Source: Escherichia coli
Lineage (GTDB): Bacteria; Pseudomonadota; Gammaproteobacteria; Enterobacterales; Enterobacteriaceae
DNA: 64,000 nucleotides
Strand: one strand, 5' to 3'
NCBI RefSeq assembly: GCF_044324785.1
Contig: NZ_CP172127.1
The first letter of the stretch is position 1, and each line of letters opens with the position of its first letter. The notes under the pieces were generated by a model. It had not been told where the DNA came from and did not search any database. It worked only from the letters and a program-made list of their open reading frames with translations. This document shows positions 2,690-7,271 of the stretch, one piece after another. Both the position numbers and the translations under genes were made by a program.

Positions 2690-4840
2690 TTAACGCCGCC
2701 GACGGCGTGGGGATTTCGTTTTTTCTTTCTTTTTAACTATACCTTCAGGGACTTCCGGTTGCTCTATCGGAAATACCGGTAATGCATCCAGTAGCCGCTT
2801 GCCATAATTTTTGGTCAGCAAGCGTTTGTCGTAAATCACCACTTCGCCCCAGCAACCGTGGCTTCGAATCAGTCGCCCAACCTGCTGAATCAGGTTAAAC
2901 GAGGCGCTCGGCAGGCTTTGCACCTCAAACGGATAGCGGTTGAGGCTTTTCAGCCATTCTCCTTCGGTGATCACCACCGGGCTGTCGATGGGCGGAAAAG
3001 CGATTTTGTGGATATGCACCTGGCTGAGCAGATCGCCTTTCAAATCAAGCCCTTCGGCAAATGACTGCAAGCCCACCAGCACGCTACGCTCACCGTTGGC
3101 AACGCGTTTGCGGTGCAGTTCAACTAAACGGTAACGCGGCTGATCGCCCTGCACCAGCAACATCAGGCGTAAATCCGTCACATAGTCGAGAAACCGCTGC
3201 ATCGCCCGTCCGCTGGCAAACAGTACCAACATACCGAGATGTTTTTTGCTCTCCACCTGTTTACGGAAAAAGGCCGCCATTTCGGCAATGTGCTGCTCTT
3301 CGTTGTCGATGGAAGGCTCAACGCGCATCCGGGGAATAACAATTTTGCCCTGTTCGCAGTGGTTAAAGGGCGAATCCAGCGCCACAAAGCGGTCGCCCGC
3401 TTTCTCTTTCAGCCCGCTCATCTCCTGCAAACGCGAAAAACTGTTCAGCGAACGCAAGGTTGCGGAAGTGACAATAATGTGCGGAATACTGCGCCACAGC
3501 AGCCTTTCCAGCTGATCGCTGACACGAATACCCACGCAGTGAAACCAGAGATGCAGCTGCCCTTCGCGCTCTTCCCGCGTCGCCCATTTGGTCACCGGCG
3601 CACCGGAAGATTGCGCCAGAGACGCCAGCCGCCAGAGTTTGCTTTGCGCCTCGAACATCCCCAGCGCGCGGTTCATCTGCAAAATCAACCGATGCAGACG
3701 TACAATGTCATGGCTGCCGGTTTTCTCACTTAAATCGTTAAGAAATAACTCCGCCAGACCACGCAGCATCTCGGTGAGTTTTGCCAGCCGTTGGCAGATC
3801 TCCAGCACTTCATCAGGCAGTTCGCCCATCGCAAAACGGTGCTCTGCCTCCTGCCCGGCAGGCATGTAGAGGTTGAGAATGTTGTTTAACGAGGCGATAA
3901 GCTCATACAACTCTTCACAATGGGCATTCAAACGCTCGGGGATCGCCAGCGGAGGGATGGTCTTCGGGCGAAACTGCTCCATACAGGTAGCGACCAGTTT
4001 CGTGAACAAGTCCAGCTGTAGCCGATACCAGGGCGCGGTGATTTCGGCGCTCATCTCCAGCGCATCCCGTGCCACATCCGGCAGGTGATGACCTTCGTCC
4101 AGCACCAGCAGTAAATTTTTCGGGTCAGGCAATACGGCTTCGCTTTCCATCGCCGCCATCACCAGCGCATGGTTTGCCACTACAACTTCCGCTTCCTGAA
4201 TTTCCCGACGAGCGACAAAAAACGGGCATTCGCGATAGTAATAACAGTTGCGGTTGAGGCAGCTGGCTTTGTCGGTACTCAACCGACGCCAGAGATCATC
4301 ATCAATGGCGATATCCGTATGATCGCGCAGACCATCCCATTTATAAGTGTCGAGATCGCCCTTCAACTTTGCACAACGCTTTTGCTCTTCCTGATTGTTC
4401 GGCGTCAGCTCGTCGTCAAGAAACGCCAGCAGATCCTGTTGCGTGGGTTCAGTACTGGCAAGCGCTGTCAGATTACGCGGGCAAACGTAGCGCCCACGCC
4501 CAAAAGCGGCAGTGAATTTAAGATCGGGAATGATCTTTTTCAGCAATGGTAAATCTTTGCTGTAGATCTGATCCTGCAACGCCACGTTGGCGGTACTCAC
4601 CACCAACGTTTTTTGCTCTTCGCGGGCAATGGCGATGCCGGGAATCAAATAGGAGAGCGTTTTCCCAACGCCGGTGGGTGCTTCAATCGCCAGATGCCGC
4701 CCTTCTTCTCCGGCCAGCGTTTTGGCGACGTCCGCAATCATCTGCCGCTGCGGCGCACGGGGAATAAAGTCGGGGATCTGTTCCTGAAGCGCCTTATACC
4801 AGGCGGCAATTTGCGCTTTAAGCGCGGCGGTTAATGCCAT
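2690..4840 (-). CDS. dinG: ATP-dependent DNA helicase DinG
   Basis: 716-aa ORF with helicase motifs (GVGKT Walker A, DEGH box) and cysteine-containing region; a LexA box lies upstream. Confidence 0.95.
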   Translation of the reverse strand: MALTAALKAQIAAWYKALQEQIPDFIPRAPQRQMIADVAKTLAGEEGRHLAIEAPTGVGKTLSYLIPGIAIAREEQKTLVVSTANVALQDQIYSKDLPLLKKIIPDLKFTAAFGRGRYVCPRNLTALASTEPTQQDLLAFLDDELTPNNQEEQKRCAKLKGDLDTYKWDGLRDHTDIAIDDDLWRRLSTDKASCLNRNCYYYRECPFFVARREIQEAEVVVANHALVMAAMESEAVLPDPKNLLLVLDEGHHLPDVARDALEMSAEITAPWYRLQLDLFTKLVATCMEQFRPKTIPPLAIPERLNAHCEELYELIASLNNILNLYMPAGQEAEHRFAMGELPDEVLEICQRLAKLTEMLRGLAELFLNDLSEKTGSHDIVRLHRLILQMNRALGMFEAQSKLWRLASLAQSSGAPVTKWATREEREGQLHLWFHCVGIRVSDQLERLLWRSIPHIIVTSATLRSLNSFSRLQEMSGLKEKAGDRFVALDSPFNHCEQGKIVIPRMRVEPSIDNEEQHIAEMAAFFRKQVESKKHLGMLVLFASGRAMQRFLDYVTDLRLMLLVQGDQPRYRLVELHRKRVANGERSVLVGLQSFAEGLDLKGDLLSQVHIHKIAFPPIDSPVVITEGEWLKSLNRYPFEVQSLPSASFNLIQQVGRLIRSHGCWGEVVIYDKRLLTKNYGKRLLDALPVFPIEQPEVPEGIVKKKEKTKSPRRRRR

Positions 4841-4854
4841 GAGAAAACCTGAAA

Positions 4855-4874
4855 TACTGTATAAACAGCCAATA
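4855..4874 (-). promoter_or_regulatory. dinG SOS (LexA) box, non-canonical
   Basis: Minus strand reads tattggctgtttatacagta, which is the dinG LexA operator as I recall it, 15 bp upstream of the dinG ATG. Confidence 0.7.
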
Positions 4875-5010
4875 TTGTGGCATTTTTCGGTTTTCAGGGG
4901 TAATGGTTTTTCTGTTTCTGGAAAGCGGCTCGCAATAACGTTTTCTGGAAGTGAGATTTTCCCGCAGCAGAAGAAACATCATTGCGTAGTAAAAGACAAT
5001 GCACGCAGGC

Positions 5011-5292
5011 TTATTGCGCTGGTGGCCATTGCAGGGCGGTATGCAAAACACGCAGTACCGAGAGCGTATCGCCCTCCACTTGGTAGATCAGCACATAATG
5101 CGGTCTGACAACGGCTTCATGAGTGCCAGCGACTCGTCCGGCCCGATACATCTGCGGGCGTTCACAAACCTGTTCCGCAATGGCTTCAAATTGATTATCA
5201 AGGGCAATTGCCGCTTGCGGATTATCTTTACTGATGTATACCATGATTTGCTCCCTGTCAGACAGGGACATTGGCTTCCATTCCAGACGCAT
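5011..5292 (-). CDS. ParE/RelE-family type II toxin (ParE2-like)
   Basis: 93-aa ORF with ParE-like features (C-terminal ...LIYQVEGDTLSVLRVLHTA). Its ATG overlaps the upstream gene's stop as TAATG. Confidence 0.75.
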   Translation of the reverse strand: MRLEWKPMSLSDREQIMVYISKDNPQAAIALDNQFEAIAEQVCERPQMYRAGRVAGTHEAVVRPHYVLIYQVEGDTLSVLRVLHTALQWPPAQ

Positions 5293-5732
5293 TAATCCCC
5301 CTTCAACAAGGCTTTTTTACGGGCAGCAAATAGACTTTTGGCCTCTTCATGAGAGAGCGCTGGGCGTGGATCGTCAATGGCGGCCTGCACCTGCTCTCGA
5401 AACCAGGCATCATACGCGGCAGCTTCATGAGCTCGTTTTAATGCCTCTGCCCTGTCAGGTCGGGTCGTTTTCTTCTGACCATCCGGGTCGTAATTAGAGG
5501 CGTCGACTTCAAACCGGGCAATACCAACATCTTTCAGGTAGTTGACAACCGTTTCCAGCCGTTTGAACAGGCGGATTTGCCGACTGCGTTGTGCTGCAAG
5601 AGGCCGTTCAGTGTGGCCGTATTTCACGGTCAACGACCAGCCTCCCTGGGTGCCAATAACGTGTGCTGCATCCACTACGCCAGACTCAACCAGTTTATGT
5701 AAGGTTGAGTGATCGATCGTTTCTGGTGCCAT
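5292..5732 (-). CDS. Putative antitoxin: roughly 100-aa N-terminal domain of unknown function fused to a PaaA2/ParD-like C-terminal tail
   Basis: 146-aa ORF translationally coupled to the toxin. The C-terminal AYDAWFREQVQAAIDDPRPALSHEEAKSLFAARKK resembles the PaaA2-type ParE-neutralising motif as I remember it; I do not recognise the N-terminal domain. Confidence 0.55.
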   Translation of the reverse strand: MAPETIDHSTLHKLVESGVVDAAHVIGTQGGWSLTVKYGHTERPLAAQRSRQIRLFKRLETVVNYLKDVGIARFEVDASNYDPDGQKKTTRPDRAEALKRAHEAAAYDAWFREQVQAAIDDPRPALSHEEAKSLFAARKKALLKGD

Positions 5733-5760
5733 AATGCGCTAACCTCTTTGTATACAGCAT

Positions 5761-5824
5761 GCAATTTATAATTAAAGATAGCGCAATTAATAATTAAAGA
5801 TAGCGCAATTAATAATAAATTGCA
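5761..5824 (-). promoter_or_regulatory. Putative promoter/operator of the toxin-antitoxin operon: tandem 22-bp direct repeats carrying four AATTGC half-sites
   Basis: aattaaagatagcgcaattaat occurs twice in tandem, with a flanking GCAATT-N7-AATTGC palindrome, 30 to 90 bp upstream of the antitoxin start. Confidence 0.45.
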
Positions 5825-5909
5825 TTTTTTGATCGTAAATTGTCCAGGGTGAAATTGCGGTAGAAAGAGACTTGTTGCGAAGATGCCGGGCATCGCCCGG
5901 CATAAAAAG

Positions 5910-7271
5910 TTACTGCGCAGCGGCAGGTTTACGCGGACGGCGGCGACGTTGTTGTTCGCCTGCCGGTTTGGCATCGCCGAGACGACGAGACGGTTTTTCT
6001 GCAGGTTTTGCGCTTGCAGATTTTGCACCACCTTCAGCGCGGCGTGGTTGCTGTTGACCGCGACCACCGCCTTGTCCACGACCGCCGCCACGTTGCTGGC
6101 GACCATTCTGGATCGGTTCGGCTTTGATTGACGGGTCCGGCTCATAGCCCGGAATCGCAATGCGCGGGATCTCTTTTTTCAGCAGTTTTTCGATATCACG
6201 CAGCAGTTTGTGTTCATCCACACACACCAGCGATAACGCTTCACCGGTGGCTGCGGCACGACCGGTACGCCCGATACGGTGGACATAATCTTCCGGTACG
6301 TTTGGCAGTTCATAGTTGACCACGTGCGGCAGCTCTTCAATATCCAGGCCGCGCGCAGCGATGTCAGTTGCCACCAGTACACGAATATCGCCCGATTTAA
6401 AATCGGCCAGCGCACGGGTACGCGCACCTTGCGATTTATTACCGTGGATCGCCGCACTGCGGATGCCATCTTTATTGAGCTGTTCAGCCAGATGGTTAGC
6501 GCCATGTTTGGTACGGGTAAACACCAGCACCTGCTGCCAGTTCCCTTTCCCAATCATGTGCGACAGCAATTCGCGTTTGCGTTTCTTATCAACAAAGTGA
6601 ACATGCTGGGTCACCTGATCAGACGCGGTATTGCGGCGTGCCACTTCGATTTCCAGCGGGTTGTGCAGCAGTTTTTCCGCCAGGTTTTTAATATCGTCAG
6701 AGAAAGTGGCGGAGAACAACAGGTTCTGGCGCTTCGCTGGCAGCTTAGTCAACACACGACGGATATCGTGGATAAAGCCCATATCGAGCATGCGGTCAGC
6801 TTCATCGAGGACGAGAATTTCAACCTGATCCAGCTTCACTGCATTCTGATGTTCCAGGTCCAGCAAACGTCCCGGCGTTGCCACCAGCACATCAACGCCA
6901 CCGCGCAGCTTCATCATCTGCGGGTTGATGCTGACGCCACCAAACACCACCAGCGAACGAATGTTCAGGTATTTGCTGTAATCACGGACGTTTTCGCCAA
7001 TCTGCGCCGCCAGTTCACGGGTCGGGGTAAGAATGAGCGCACGTACCGGACGACGCCCTTTGGCGTGCGGCTGGCGAGTGATCAGGTGTTGCAACAGCGG
7101 CAGCGTAAAGCCCGCTGTTTTGCCGGTACCGGTCTGGGCACTGGCCATCAGGTCGCGGCCCTCCAGCACCGCAGGGATCGCCTGCTGCTGAATAGGGGTG
7201 GGTTCACGGTAACCCTGCTCGGCAACGGCGCGCAGGATATCAGGGCTTAAACCCAAAGAATCGAAAGACAT
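5910..7271 (-). CDS. rhlE: ATP-dependent RNA helicase RhlE (DEAD-box)
   Basis: 453-aa ORF with DEAD-box motifs ([23 protein letters not shown]) and an Arg/Gly-rich C-terminal tail. Confidence 0.95.

What the first reader, a model, noticed from the sequence alone, without database searches (positions are those of the whole stretch)
5011..5732. ParE-type toxin with an N-terminally extended PaaA2-like partner sits where K-12 has ybiA
Between rhlE and dinG the sequence has no ybiA-like ORF (as I recall, K-12 has a 160-aa ybiA on the opposite strand). Instead there is a two-gene module on the minus strand. The downstream 93-aa gene is a ParE/RelE-family toxin, and its ATG overlaps the upstream stop (TAATG). 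The upstream 146-aa protein ends in a tail (AYDAWFREQVQAAIDDPRPALSHEEAKSLFAARKK) that resembles the PaaA2/ParD-type ParE-neutralising segment, but it carries about 100 extra N-terminal residues I cannot place in any family. Classical PaaA2 is about 63 aa and depends on a separate regulator, so this could be a fused regulator-antitoxin or a new partner domain for ParE. This is the strongest candidate for an undescribed system in the window.
Basis: partly seen in the sequence, partly recalled or inferred. Interest (0 to 1): 0.75.

Follow-up and report, generated by a model that had tools for sequence, protein, structure and literature searches.

The report
ParE toxin with ParC-PaaA2 fusion antitoxin
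Between dinG and rhlE, where E. coli K-12 has ybiA, this genome carries an intact two-gene toxin-antitoxin module whose antitoxin joins a known ParE-neutralising tail to an uncharacterised plasmid "ParC-like" domain that probably binds a conserved palindrome in its own promoter; the module is widespread and already named in databases, but I found no experimental study of it.

Summary
Window 5292-5732(-) encodes a 146-aa protein and 5011-5292(-) a 93-aa protein, overlapping by one base (TAATG), between dinG and rhlE. K-12 has ybiA there on the other strand.

The toxin is ParE-family; its closest solved relative is ParE2 of E. coli O157. Antitoxin residues ~94-146 match PaaA2 in Pfam and the PDB.

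- The same gene pair occurs in at least 69 of 79 loci from Gamma- and Betaproteobacteria, on plasmids, and at this same slot in 324 of 5,426 complete E. coli genomes.
- A palindrome, GCAAT-N9-ATTGC, lies 39-56 nt upstream of the antitoxin start in 35 of 59 non-redundant loci, against about 0.5% expected. It overlaps the predicted -35 and spacer.
- A linked N-domain dimer model reaches pTM 0.79.

Best reading: a canonical two-gene type II module with a fused regulator-antitoxin, the unsplit counterpart of the three-gene paaR2-paaA2-parE2 system. DNA binding and toxicity are inferred, not shown. I rate it a new variant of a known kind, of moderate interest.

The parts
5292..5732 (-). Antitoxin gene, 146 aa (two domains plus a linker).
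   Evidence: ORF. 900 homologous clusters have the same length and the domain pair PF28031 + PF21217. RefSeq calls the E. coli orthologue 'antitoxin PaaA2 family protein'.
5487..5732 (-). N-terminal ParC-like domain (residues 1-82). Predicted alpha-beta3-alpha-beta fold; the candidate dimeric DNA-binding and regulator domain.
5454..5486 (-). Low-confidence, variable linker (residues 83-93).
   Evidence: pLDDT is below 50 at residues 86-91. These are the least conserved columns in alignment A1.
5292..5453 (-). PaaA2-like ParE-neutralising tail (residues 94-146, two predicted helices), plus the stop codon.
   Evidence: Pfam PaaA2 PF21217, E 4.2e-10, residues 104-130. PDB PaaA2 chains 3zbe, 5cw7 and 5czf, E 2e-4. 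NCBIfam NF050103 scores 47.1 bits against a cut-off of 50. Helices at 94-120 and 128-144.
5011..5292 (-). ParE-family toxin gene, 93 aa. Its ATG overlaps the antitoxin stop codon.
   Evidence: Pfam ParE_toxin, E 1.5e-13. TIGR02385 scores 37.3 bits, above its cut-off of 27.9. The best solved relatives are ParE2 of O157 (5cw7_B, E 2e-7) and another ParE (5ceg_B); no RelE, HigB or YoeB chain appears among the hits.
5805..5823 (.). Perfect palindrome GCAAT-N9-ATTGC, the candidate operator. It overlaps the predicted -35 and spacer.
   Evidence: It is the only perfect match in the 64-kb window. At least 9 of 10 arm positions match in 35 of 59 non-redundant homologous loci at a fixed distance from the ATG, against 0.35-0.6% in controls. 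Inverted repeats I1, I2 and I11.
5761..5804 (.). Two tandem copies of a 22-bp unit. Each carries an extra ATTGC half-site and a TATCTT -10-like hexamer, so half-sites sit at 22-bp phasing (5805, 5783, 5761).
   Evidence: the repeat finder families D1 and D2. The two E. coli carriers examined and E. whittamii have one copy fewer.
5797..5825 (-). Inferred sigma-70 promoter: -35 ATGCAA (5825-5820), 17-nt spacer, -10 TATCTT (5802-5797). In other genera the equivalent is TTGCAA-N16-TAGCAT or TACAAT.
   Evidence: Read from the aligned upstream regions. The consensus scan proposes an alternative on the same strand, TTTACG-16-TATTAT at 5839-5812. Neither has been tested.
5743..5747 (-). Shine-Dalgarno sequence AGAGG for the antitoxin.
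   Evidence: Sequence. It is conserved as AGAGG or GAGG in homologous loci.
4940..5881 (.). The 942-bp segment that stands in place of the 706-bp K-12 segment carrying ybiA and a REP element.
   Evidence: Window 4841-4939 is 100% identical to K-12, and 5882-5907 matches the rhlE terminator hairpin. Nothing between them aligns. No transposase or integrase is present, and G+C content is unremarkable.

Best explanation
This is an intact, self-contained two-gene type II toxin-antitoxin module of the ParE/PaaA2 lineage. The 93-aa ParE-family toxin is neutralised when the two C-terminal helices of the antitoxin (residues ~94-146, homologous to PaaA2) wrap around it, as in the solved PaaA2-ParE2 complex. 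In that three-gene O157 system (paaR2-paaA2-parE2), the antitoxin is a 63-aa peptide with no DNA-binding domain, and a separate repressor, PaaR2, controls the operon. Here the antitoxin carries its own folded N-terminal domain (residues 1-82) of the plasmid 'ParC-like' superfamily. I propose that this domain dimerises and binds the palindrome GCAAT-N9-ATTGC, which overlaps the -35 and spacer of the module's promoter. Additional phased half-sites lie downstream. Binding would give classical autorepression. The one-base stop/start overlap couples toxin translation to antitoxin translation.

What is shown and what is inferred:
- Shown here: gene structure, homologies, conservation of the pair, conservation and position of the palindrome, and occupancy of the slot across E. 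coli.
- Inferred by homology: the toxin is toxic (ParE2 associates with the nucleoid and induces the SOS response; its target is unproven), and the tail neutralises it.
- Inferred from comparative genomics and modelling: the N-domain dimerises and binds the operator.

On plasmids the module probably acts as an addiction or stability element. In this chromosome it sits in a hypervariable slot.
For: Toxin:
- Pfam ParE_toxin, E 1.5e-13.
- The nearest solved chains are ParE2 and other ParE proteins.

Antitoxin tail:
- Pfam PaaA2.
- It aligns to PaaA2 across YxxWxRxxV...DPRPAxxHxE.

Module integrity:
- A ParE gene lies directly downstream of the antitoxin in at least 69 of 79 loci from Enterobacterales, Pseudomonas and Betaproteobacteria.
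- The pair travels together on Klebsiella, Yersinia, Salmonella and Rhizobium plasmids in unrelated contexts.
- No third co-oriented regulator gene is present.

Operator:
- GCAAT-N9-ATTGC matches at 9 or more of 10 arm positions in 35 of 59 non-redundant loci, 39-56 nt before the ATG. The rate is 0.35% in shuffles and 0.57% in other 130-nt windows of the same loci.
- The surrounding sequence is not conserved.
- It is the only perfect site in the window.
- Stand-alone ParC-like genes on small plasmids, which have no PaaA2 tail and no toxin, also carry CCTGCAA-N11-TTGCAGG upstream. This ties the motif to the N-domain.

Dimer: the linked N-domain pair gives pTM 0.79 with 140 of 193 residues at pLDDT >= 90, against pTM 0.48 for the full-length monomer.

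Literature: PaaA2 lacks a DNA-binding domain, and its authors ask whether an ancestral one decayed (PMC8630535).
Against: - There is no experimental evidence for toxicity, neutralisation or DNA binding in this family (one search found no papers).
- The only studied ParC (on plasmid NAH7) showed no effect on plasmid stability, transfer, or transcription of the five conjugation genes assayed (PMC12421886).
- The left arm of the palindrome coincides with a -35-like TTGCAA, so part of its conservation may be promoter conservation.
- The loci share ancestry, so the counts are not independent events.
- 24 of 59 loci score 8 or less.
- The dimer model uses an artificial linker. The tool reports only pTM and pLDDT, with no interface metrics.
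Confidence: 0.6

Rival explanations
1. This is the same toxin-antitoxin pair, but the ParC-like domain is not a DNA-binding regulator. It would be an oligomerisation scaffold, or a plasmid-maintenance or partition-related interaction domain (for example contacting ParA/ParB-type machinery or a host factor). The conserved palindrome would then be either plain promoter conservation or the site of some other protein.
For: - The family takes its name from a partition-operon gene, parABRC.
- The fold resembles no known DNA-binding antitoxin domain.
- NAH7 ParC had no effect on the five transcripts assayed.
- The left arm of the palindrome doubles as a -35 element.
Against: - The symmetric right arm ATTGC lies in the promoter spacer, where promoter function does not require it. 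It is nevertheless conserved across Gamma-, Beta- and Alphaproteobacterial copies with otherwise unrelated flanks.
- The hosts are too diverse for a shared host factor.
- The only proteins common to all these loci are the toxin and the antitoxin.
- Tail-less, toxin-less ParC-like genes keep a palindrome with the same spacing.
- The chromosomal copies have no par genes nearby.
Confidence: 0.22
2. The toxin is a RelE-type ribosome-dependent mRNA interferase rather than a ParE-type poison of gyrase or DNA metabolism.
For: - NCBIfam's best hit is the RelE/StbE subfamily TIGR02385, above its cut-off.
- RefSeq sometimes names the orthologue an 'mRNA interferase toxin'.
- ParE and RelE share a fold.
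- The target of ParE2 itself is unproven.
Against: - Pfam's best match is ParE_toxin end to end (residues 3-86, E 1.5e-13); YafQ scores only E 0.16.
- All solved relatives at E < 0.01 are ParE proteins.
- The antitoxin tail is of the ParE-specific PaaA2 type.
Confidence: 0.1
3. The chromosomal copy is an inert remnant that is no longer expressed or toxic, left in a recombination hotspot. The 22-bp duplication in its promoter would be a sign of decay.
For: - The slot is highly variable.
- In one carrier the toxin is annotated shorter, at 78 aa.
- The window allele has a promoter-region duplication not seen in the three relatives examined.
Against: - Both ORFs are full length, with start codons, a ribosome-binding site and the coupling overlap intact.
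- Residues invariant across the family are retained.
- 324 E. coli genomes keep the pair at 95-97.6% nucleotide identity.
- The Escherichia whittamii copy is 99% (antitoxin) and 94% (toxin) identical.
Confidence: 0.08

Closest known systems
paaR2-paaA2-parE2 of E. coli O157:H7 prophage CP-933P (PDB 3ZBE, 5CW7, 5CZE, 5CZF)
   Same: The toxin is the closest solved relative of this one. The antitoxin tail shares the PaaA2 motif and the predicted two-helix layout. In both, the antitoxin gene lies directly upstream of the toxin gene.
   Different: PaaA2 is about 63 aa, lacks any DNA-binding domain and depends on a separate HTH repressor, PaaR2, within a prophage immunity region. Here there are two genes only, the antitoxin is 146 aa with an added folded ParC-like domain, and there is no prophage context.
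Classical ParD-ParE modules (RK2, Caulobacter, Vibrio cholerae ParDE2, Mesorhizobium ParDE3 5CEG)
   Same: The logic is the same: an antitoxin with an N-terminal dimeric operator-binding domain and a C-terminal ParE-wrapping tail, an autoregulated two-gene operon, and a role in plasmid stabilisation.
   Different: ParD uses a ribbon-helix-helix domain. This N-domain is an alpha/beta fold with no RHH, HTH, AbrB or Phd similarity, and the tail is of the PaaA2 type rather than the ParD type.
ParC of IncP-9 plasmids (NAH7 parABRC) / NCBIfam NF041544 / Pfam PF28031 ParC-like
   Same: It is homologous to antitoxin residues 6-83. It is plasmid-associated and of similar size, about 80 residues.
   Different: Bona fide ParC is a stand-alone protein in partition operons, with no known function and no phenotype on deletion. 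The window protein scores far below the ParC cut-off (33 vs 95 bits) and is fused to an antitoxin tail.
ParC-like protein + M48/HtpX-like metalloprotease pairs on Xanthomonas plasmids (pXAC64, pXap41)
   Same: The N-terminal domain is the same (hhalign 97.5%). It is followed by a different tail, and the downstream partner gene overlaps it by 4 bp.
   Different: The partner is a putative membrane metalloprotease, not ParE. The upstream palindrome differs (CAAAC-N6-GTTTG). These pairs are uncharacterised.

Membership tests
ParE toxin family (Pfam PF05016) | A full-length match to the ParE_toxin profile. | tested here: met
   Residues 3-86 match model positions 1-86 of 89, E 1.5e-13.
ParE toxin family (Pfam PF05016) | The nearest characterised or solved relatives are ParE proteins rather than RelE, HigB or YoeB. 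| tested here: met
   The only PDB hits at E < 0.01 are ParE2 (5cw7, 5czf) and ParE 5ceg.
ParE toxin family (Pfam PF05016) | Toxicity through gyrase or DNA metabolism (SOS induction). | not testable with these tools
   This needs expression and gyrase assays. Even the target of ParE2 is unproven.
PaaA2 antitoxin / three-component paaR-paaA-parE system | A PaaA2 neutralising motif next to a ParE2-like toxin. | tested here: met
   PF21217, E 4.2e-10. PaaA2 chains in the PDB, E 2e-4. A ParE gene lies directly downstream.
PaaA2 antitoxin / three-component paaR-paaA-parE system | A short (~63 aa) antitoxin with no DNA-binding or other folded domain. | tested here: not met
   The protein is 146 aa with a confidently folded N-domain of about 80 residues.
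PaaA2 antitoxin / three-component paaR-paaA-parE system | A separate PaaR-type HTH regulator gene in the operon. | tested here: not met
   The upstream neighbour is the end of rhlE, and no third ORF is present. The same two-gene unit occurs on plasmids.
ParC partition-associated protein (NCBIfam NF041544) | A score above the curated cut-off (95 bits). | tested here: not met
   33 bits, E 3.5e-8. A true ParC from pXap41 scores 99.7 bits.
ParC partition-associated protein (NCBIfam NF041544) | Encoded within a parA/parB partition operon. | tested here: not met
   No par genes are adjacent in the window, in the E. coli carriers or on the plasmids checked.
Pfam PF28031 ParC-like (superfamily level) | Detectable homology of residues 1-82 to the ParC-like domain. 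| tested here: met
   Precomputed PF28031 on nearly all of the 120 listed homologues (117 of 120), including the 99%-identical cluster. The name is seen. hhalign gives 94.5% against ParC. The local Pfam copy lacks this model.
Canonical autoregulated type II TA module | Two small co-oriented genes, antitoxin first, with overlapping stop and start codons, conserved as a unit. | tested here: met
   (at least 69 of 79 loci).
Canonical autoregulated type II TA module | A palindromic operator in the promoter, bound by the antitoxin's N-terminal domain. | tested here: inconclusive
   The palindrome is conserved and positioned over the promoter, and a dimer is predicted. Binding itself has not been tested.
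Canonical autoregulated type II TA module | Toxin toxicity and rescue by the antitoxin. | not testable with these tools
   This requires expression experiments.

The most novel reading that the evidence does not exclude
The ParC-like domain is a previously unrecognised class of dimeric, sequence-specific DNA-binding domain. It would be a new antitoxin operator-binding fold alongside RHH, HTH, AbrB and Phd/YefM, recognising TGCAA-N11-TTGCA. This module would then be the unsplit form of the PaaR2/PaaA2 arrangement, answering the published question of whether PaaA2 descended from an antitoxin that had its own DNA-binding domain. By extension it would give a first testable function, as a transcriptional regulator, to the orphan plasmid protein ParC and to the ParC-like/M48-protease pairs on Xanthomonas plasmids.
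Probability: 0.45. Interest if true: 0.6.

Novelty: new variant of a known kind. Interest (0 to 1): 0.45.

Why it matters
ParE/PaaA2 is a structurally well-studied toxin-antitoxin pair, and its regulation is considered atypical because the antitoxin has no DNA-binding domain. This finding shows a large, widely distributed sister group: 900 clusters at 90% identity, on plasmids and chromosomes of Alpha-, Beta- and Gammaproteobacteria, and in 6% of complete E. coli genomes. In this group the same neutralising tail is fused to a folded domain, and a matching conserved palindrome sits in the promoter. If binding is confirmed, three things follow:
- It adds a new DNA-binding fold to the antitoxin repertoire.
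- It bears on the evolutionary question raised in PMC8630535.
- It suggests what the function-less plasmid protein ParC does.

The E. coli dinG-rhlE slot also gives a natural set of strains for comparison: intact ybiA, a ybiA remnant, the TA module, a prophage or an effector gene.

Tried and rejected
- **Defence and phage libraries.** PADLOC gave no hit. PHROGs gave only families of unknown function. There is no evidence for a defence-system or phage origin.
- **Neighbourhoods of tail-less ParC-like proteins** (P0153, P0133, P0256). The contexts were heterogeneous (DUF7673, a weak VbhA hit, HTH proteins) with no consistent partner, so I dropped them as evidence.
- **Covariation between operator variant and N-domain residues**. 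Loci with GCACTTT...AAAxTGC have T48/G50 instead of Q48/S50. That is only three closely related loci, too few to count.
- **Signs of recent transfer.** G+C content is unremarkable and no mobility genes are present. The junctions give no target duplication that I could see.
- **Literature.** Searches for PaaA2-like fusions, for the Pfam accessions, and for TA modules at rhlE/dinG found nothing relevant. Searches on ParC found only 'function unknown'.
- **Extended -10 element.** I considered whether the palindrome's right arm is just an extended -10 (TGn). The spacing does not fit.

Full report
**1. The observation**

The ORF list and the sequence show two minus-strand ORFs. One, at 5292..5732, encodes 146 aa; the other, at 5011..5292, encodes 93 aa. 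They share one base (GAT TAATG CGT). An AGAGG ribosome-binding site precedes the first ATG. dinG (2690..4840) and rhlE (5910..7271) flank the pair on the same strand.

K-12 carries ybiA (N-glycosidase YbiA) on the opposite strand between these two genes. Relative to K-12, window 4841-4939 is identical, and 5882-5907 matches the rhlE terminator hairpin. The 942 bp between them (4940-5881) replace 706 bp of K-12 that hold ybiA and a REP element.

**2. The two proteins**

*Toxin.* The 93-aa protein matches Pfam ParE_toxin end to end (E 1.5e-13). It also matches TIGR02385 above that model's cut-off. Its only solved relatives at E < 0.01 are ParE2 of E. coli O157 (5cw7, 5czf; E 2e-7) and another ParE (5ceg).

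*Antitoxin tail.* Residues 104-130 of the 146-aa protein match Pfam PaaA2 (E 4e-10). Residues 83-139 align to the PaaA2 chains 3zbe and 5czf, sharing Y-x-x-W-x-R-x-x-V...DPRPA-x-x-H-x-E.

*Antitoxin N-terminus.* Residues 6-83 give a sub-threshold hit to NCBIfam NF041544, 'ParC family partition-associated protein' (33 bits against a cut-off of 95, E 3.5e-8).
- The homology is real at superfamily level. hhalign of the family alignment against a bona fide ParC (99.7 bits to NF041544) gives 94.5% probability.
- Nearly all of the 120 listed homologues (117 of 120) carry the precomputed Pfam pair PF21217 + PF28031. PF28031 is named 'ParC-like'. The local Pfam copy used by profile_search does not hold this model, which is why one search missed it.

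*Structure model.* AlphaFold2 on a 25-sequence alignment gives three parts:
- a folded alpha-beta-beta-beta-alpha-beta domain at residues 8-77 (pLDDT 81-87);
- a disordered linker (pLDDT < 50 at residues 86-91);
- two helices at 94-120 and 128-144 (pLDDT 61-76), the layout expected for a PaaA2-type tail that folds on its toxin.

**3. Is the N-domain a known fold or function?**

The only ParC I could find studied is that of the IncP-9 plasmid NAH7 (parABRC). The paper states that its function is unknown. Deleting it did not affect plasmid stability, and expressing it did not affect transfer or the five conjugation transcripts assayed (PMC12421886).

**4. Distribution**

- *E. coli.* The module occupies the same dinG-rhlE slot in 324 of 5,426 complete genomes, always chromosomal, at 95-97.6% nucleotide identity. 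RefSeq names the pair 'antitoxin PaaA2 family protein' or 'hypothetical protein', plus 'RelE/ParE family toxin'.
- *Other occupants of the slot.* ybiA is present in 3,432 genomes. The slot can also hold a ybiA remnant (strain 536), a prophage end (SF-088) or espX2 (21B8). It is a hotspot with many alleles, not a simple two-state alternation.
- *The window genome.* Its dinG is 98.4-99.1% identical to E. coli. The closest copy of the antitoxin is in Escherichia whittamii: 99% for the antitoxin and 94% for the toxin.
- *Beyond Escherichia.* The 146-aa architecture forms 900 clusters at 90% identity.
- *Species representatives.* A scan of species-representative genomes returned 79 loci from Enterobacterales, Pseudomonas and many Betaproteobacteria. 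A ParE-like ORF lies directly downstream in at least 69 of them; several of the rest are cut by contig ends.
- *Plasmids.* The pair also sits, as a unit and in unrelated surroundings, on plasmids of Klebsiella (IncR), Yersinia, Salmonella and Rhizobium.

*The ParC-like domain on its own is modular.* It is found on 379 plasmids in at least three forms:
- stand-alone 89-91-aa proteins on small E. coli and Aeromonas plasmids;
- fused to a basic tail and followed, with a 4-bp overlap, by an M48/HtpX-like metalloprotease on Xanthomonas plasmids;
- bona fide ParC.

**5. A conserved operator-like palindrome**

The window has a perfect GCAAT-N9-ATTGC at 5805-5823, the only perfect copy in 64 kb. It is followed by two further ATTGC half-sites at 22-bp phasing inside a 22-bp tandem repeat.

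I aligned the 130 nt upstream of the antitoxin start in all loci. The palindrome is kept while the flanks are not.
- 35 of 59 non-redundant loci match at least 9 of 10 arm positions, at a nearly fixed distance of 39-56 nt from the ATG.
- The same score occurs in 0.35% of shuffled sequences and in 0.57% of 1,559 other 130-nt windows from the same loci.
- The left arm coincides with a -35-like TTGCAA. The right arm lies at the 3' end of a 16-17-nt spacer, just before a -10-like TAGCAT, TACAAT or TATCTT. A bound dimer would therefore occlude RNA polymerase.
- The stand-alone ParC-like genes, which have no tail and no toxin, also have CCTGCAA-N11-TTGCAGG upstream, with the same spacing between the GCAA and TTGC cores. 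This links the motif to the N-domain rather than to the tail or the toxin.
- A divergent Burkholderiales subgroup has a variant palindrome together with substitutions in the conserved basic loop A-A-Q-R-S-R-Q-x-R. This is suggestive, but it rests on three related loci.

Caveats: the loci share ancestry, part of the motif doubles as a promoter element, and 24 of 59 loci score 8 or less. Some of those have visibly rearranged upstream regions.

**6. Dimerisation**

I modelled two N-domains (residues 1-84) joined by a 25-residue Gly/Ser linker, using a 44-sequence alignment. The model gives pTM 0.79, with 140 of 193 residues at pLDDT >= 90. The full-length monomer gave pTM 0.48. A pTM that high is not expected if the relative placement of the two domains were uncertain, so a symmetric dimer matching a two-fold-symmetric site is plausible. 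The linker is artificial, and no PAE or interface score was available.

**7. Mechanism proposed**

This is a canonical two-gene type II module.
- ParE-family toxin. By homology to ParE2, it would be a nucleoid-associated, SOS-inducing poison whose exact target is still unproven.
- Antitoxin tail. It neutralises the toxin as PaaA2 does.
- Antitoxin ParC-like N-domain. It dimerises on the promoter palindrome and autorepresses the operon.
- Toxin translation is coupled to antitoxin translation through the TAATG overlap.

Toxicity, neutralisation and DNA binding are all inferences.

**8. Comparison with what is known**

The closest system is paaR2-paaA2-parE2. It shares the toxin lineage and the neutralising motif. 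It fails two defining features of that family: a short antitoxin with no DNA-binding domain, and a separate PaaR regulator gene.

It works like ParD-ParE but uses neither the RHH domain nor the ParD tail. It is related to ParC but is not a ParC: its score is far below the cut-off, and it has no par operon.

Jurenas et al. [quoted passage not shown] This family is a concrete candidate for the undecayed form, or alternatively for a domain gain.

**9. Verdict**

It is not 'undescribed' in databases: RefSeq names it and Pfam has both domains. I found no experimental or literature description. It is a new variant of a known kind and of moderate interest. What would make it matter is an uncharacterised fold, ParC-like, acting as an operator-binding domain.

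Noticed in passing
window 5761-5804 (compare L001:4893-5048, L002:4893-5048, L012): The window allele carries a tandem duplication of a 22-bp unit (GCAATTWATAATTAAAGATAGC on the + strand) in the module's promoter region. This adds one ATTGC half-site and one -10-like TATCTT. The two E. coli carriers examined and the Escherichia whittamii copy have a single unit. The effect on expression or repression is unknown.
   Followed up: partly
dinG-rhlE slot: window 4940-5881; L003, L091, L092, L093: The slot is a multi-allelic hotspot in E. coli. Intact ybiA is present in 3,432 of 5,426 complete genomes and the TA module in 324. The rest include a truncated ybiA (NADAR) remnant (strain 536), a prophage end with a recombinase (SF-088) and the type III effector gene espX2 (21B8).
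   Followed up: partly
L009:1805-2856 (pXAC64) and L011:3989-5094 (pXap41): On Xanthomonas plasmids a 149-154-aa protein with the same ParC-like N-domain and a basic tail overlaps, by 4 bp, the start of an M48/HtpX-like metalloprotease of about 200 aa with predicted hydrophobic segments. A different palindrome (CAAAC-N6-GTTTG) lies upstream. This may be another two-gene module built on the same domain.
   Followed up: partly
L008:2998-3267 (E. coli 5.5-kb ColRNAI plasmid) and L010:409-684 (Aeromonas 6.2-kb plasmid): Stand-alone 89-91-aa ParC-like proteins sit on very small mobilisable plasmids. Their upstream regions are nearly identical between the two genera and contain CCTGCAA-N11-TTGCAGG.
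   Followed up: partly
protein P0130 (171 aa): In one metagenomic representative the ParC-like domain runs directly into the C-terminal half of a ParE toxin (…ILALLHGSQQWPKN). This is probably a deletion or frameshift fusing the antitoxin and toxin genes.
   Followed up: no
L095:3001-3844: A tail-less 116-aa ParC-like gene is the second of four genes with overlapping stops and starts: a 142-aa unknown, the ParC-like gene, a 57-aa protein with a weak VbhA hit, and a DUF7673 protein. This is an operon of unknown function on a short metagenomic contig.
   Followed up: partly
window 4852-4871: The dinG promoter region next to the module is 100% identical to K-12. It contains the sequence ATACTGTATAAACAGCCAAT, which from memory corresponds to the non-canonical LexA (SOS) box of dinG. 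The TA module's 3' end therefore lies about 140 bp from an SOS-regulated promoter that fires in the opposite direction.
   Followed up: no
window 5883-5903: A perfect 9-bp hairpin (ATGCCGGGC-GAT-GCCCGGCAT) lies immediately after the rhlE stop codon and is shared with K-12. It is probably the rhlE terminator, and it marks the right-hand boundary of the variable segment.
   Followed up: partly
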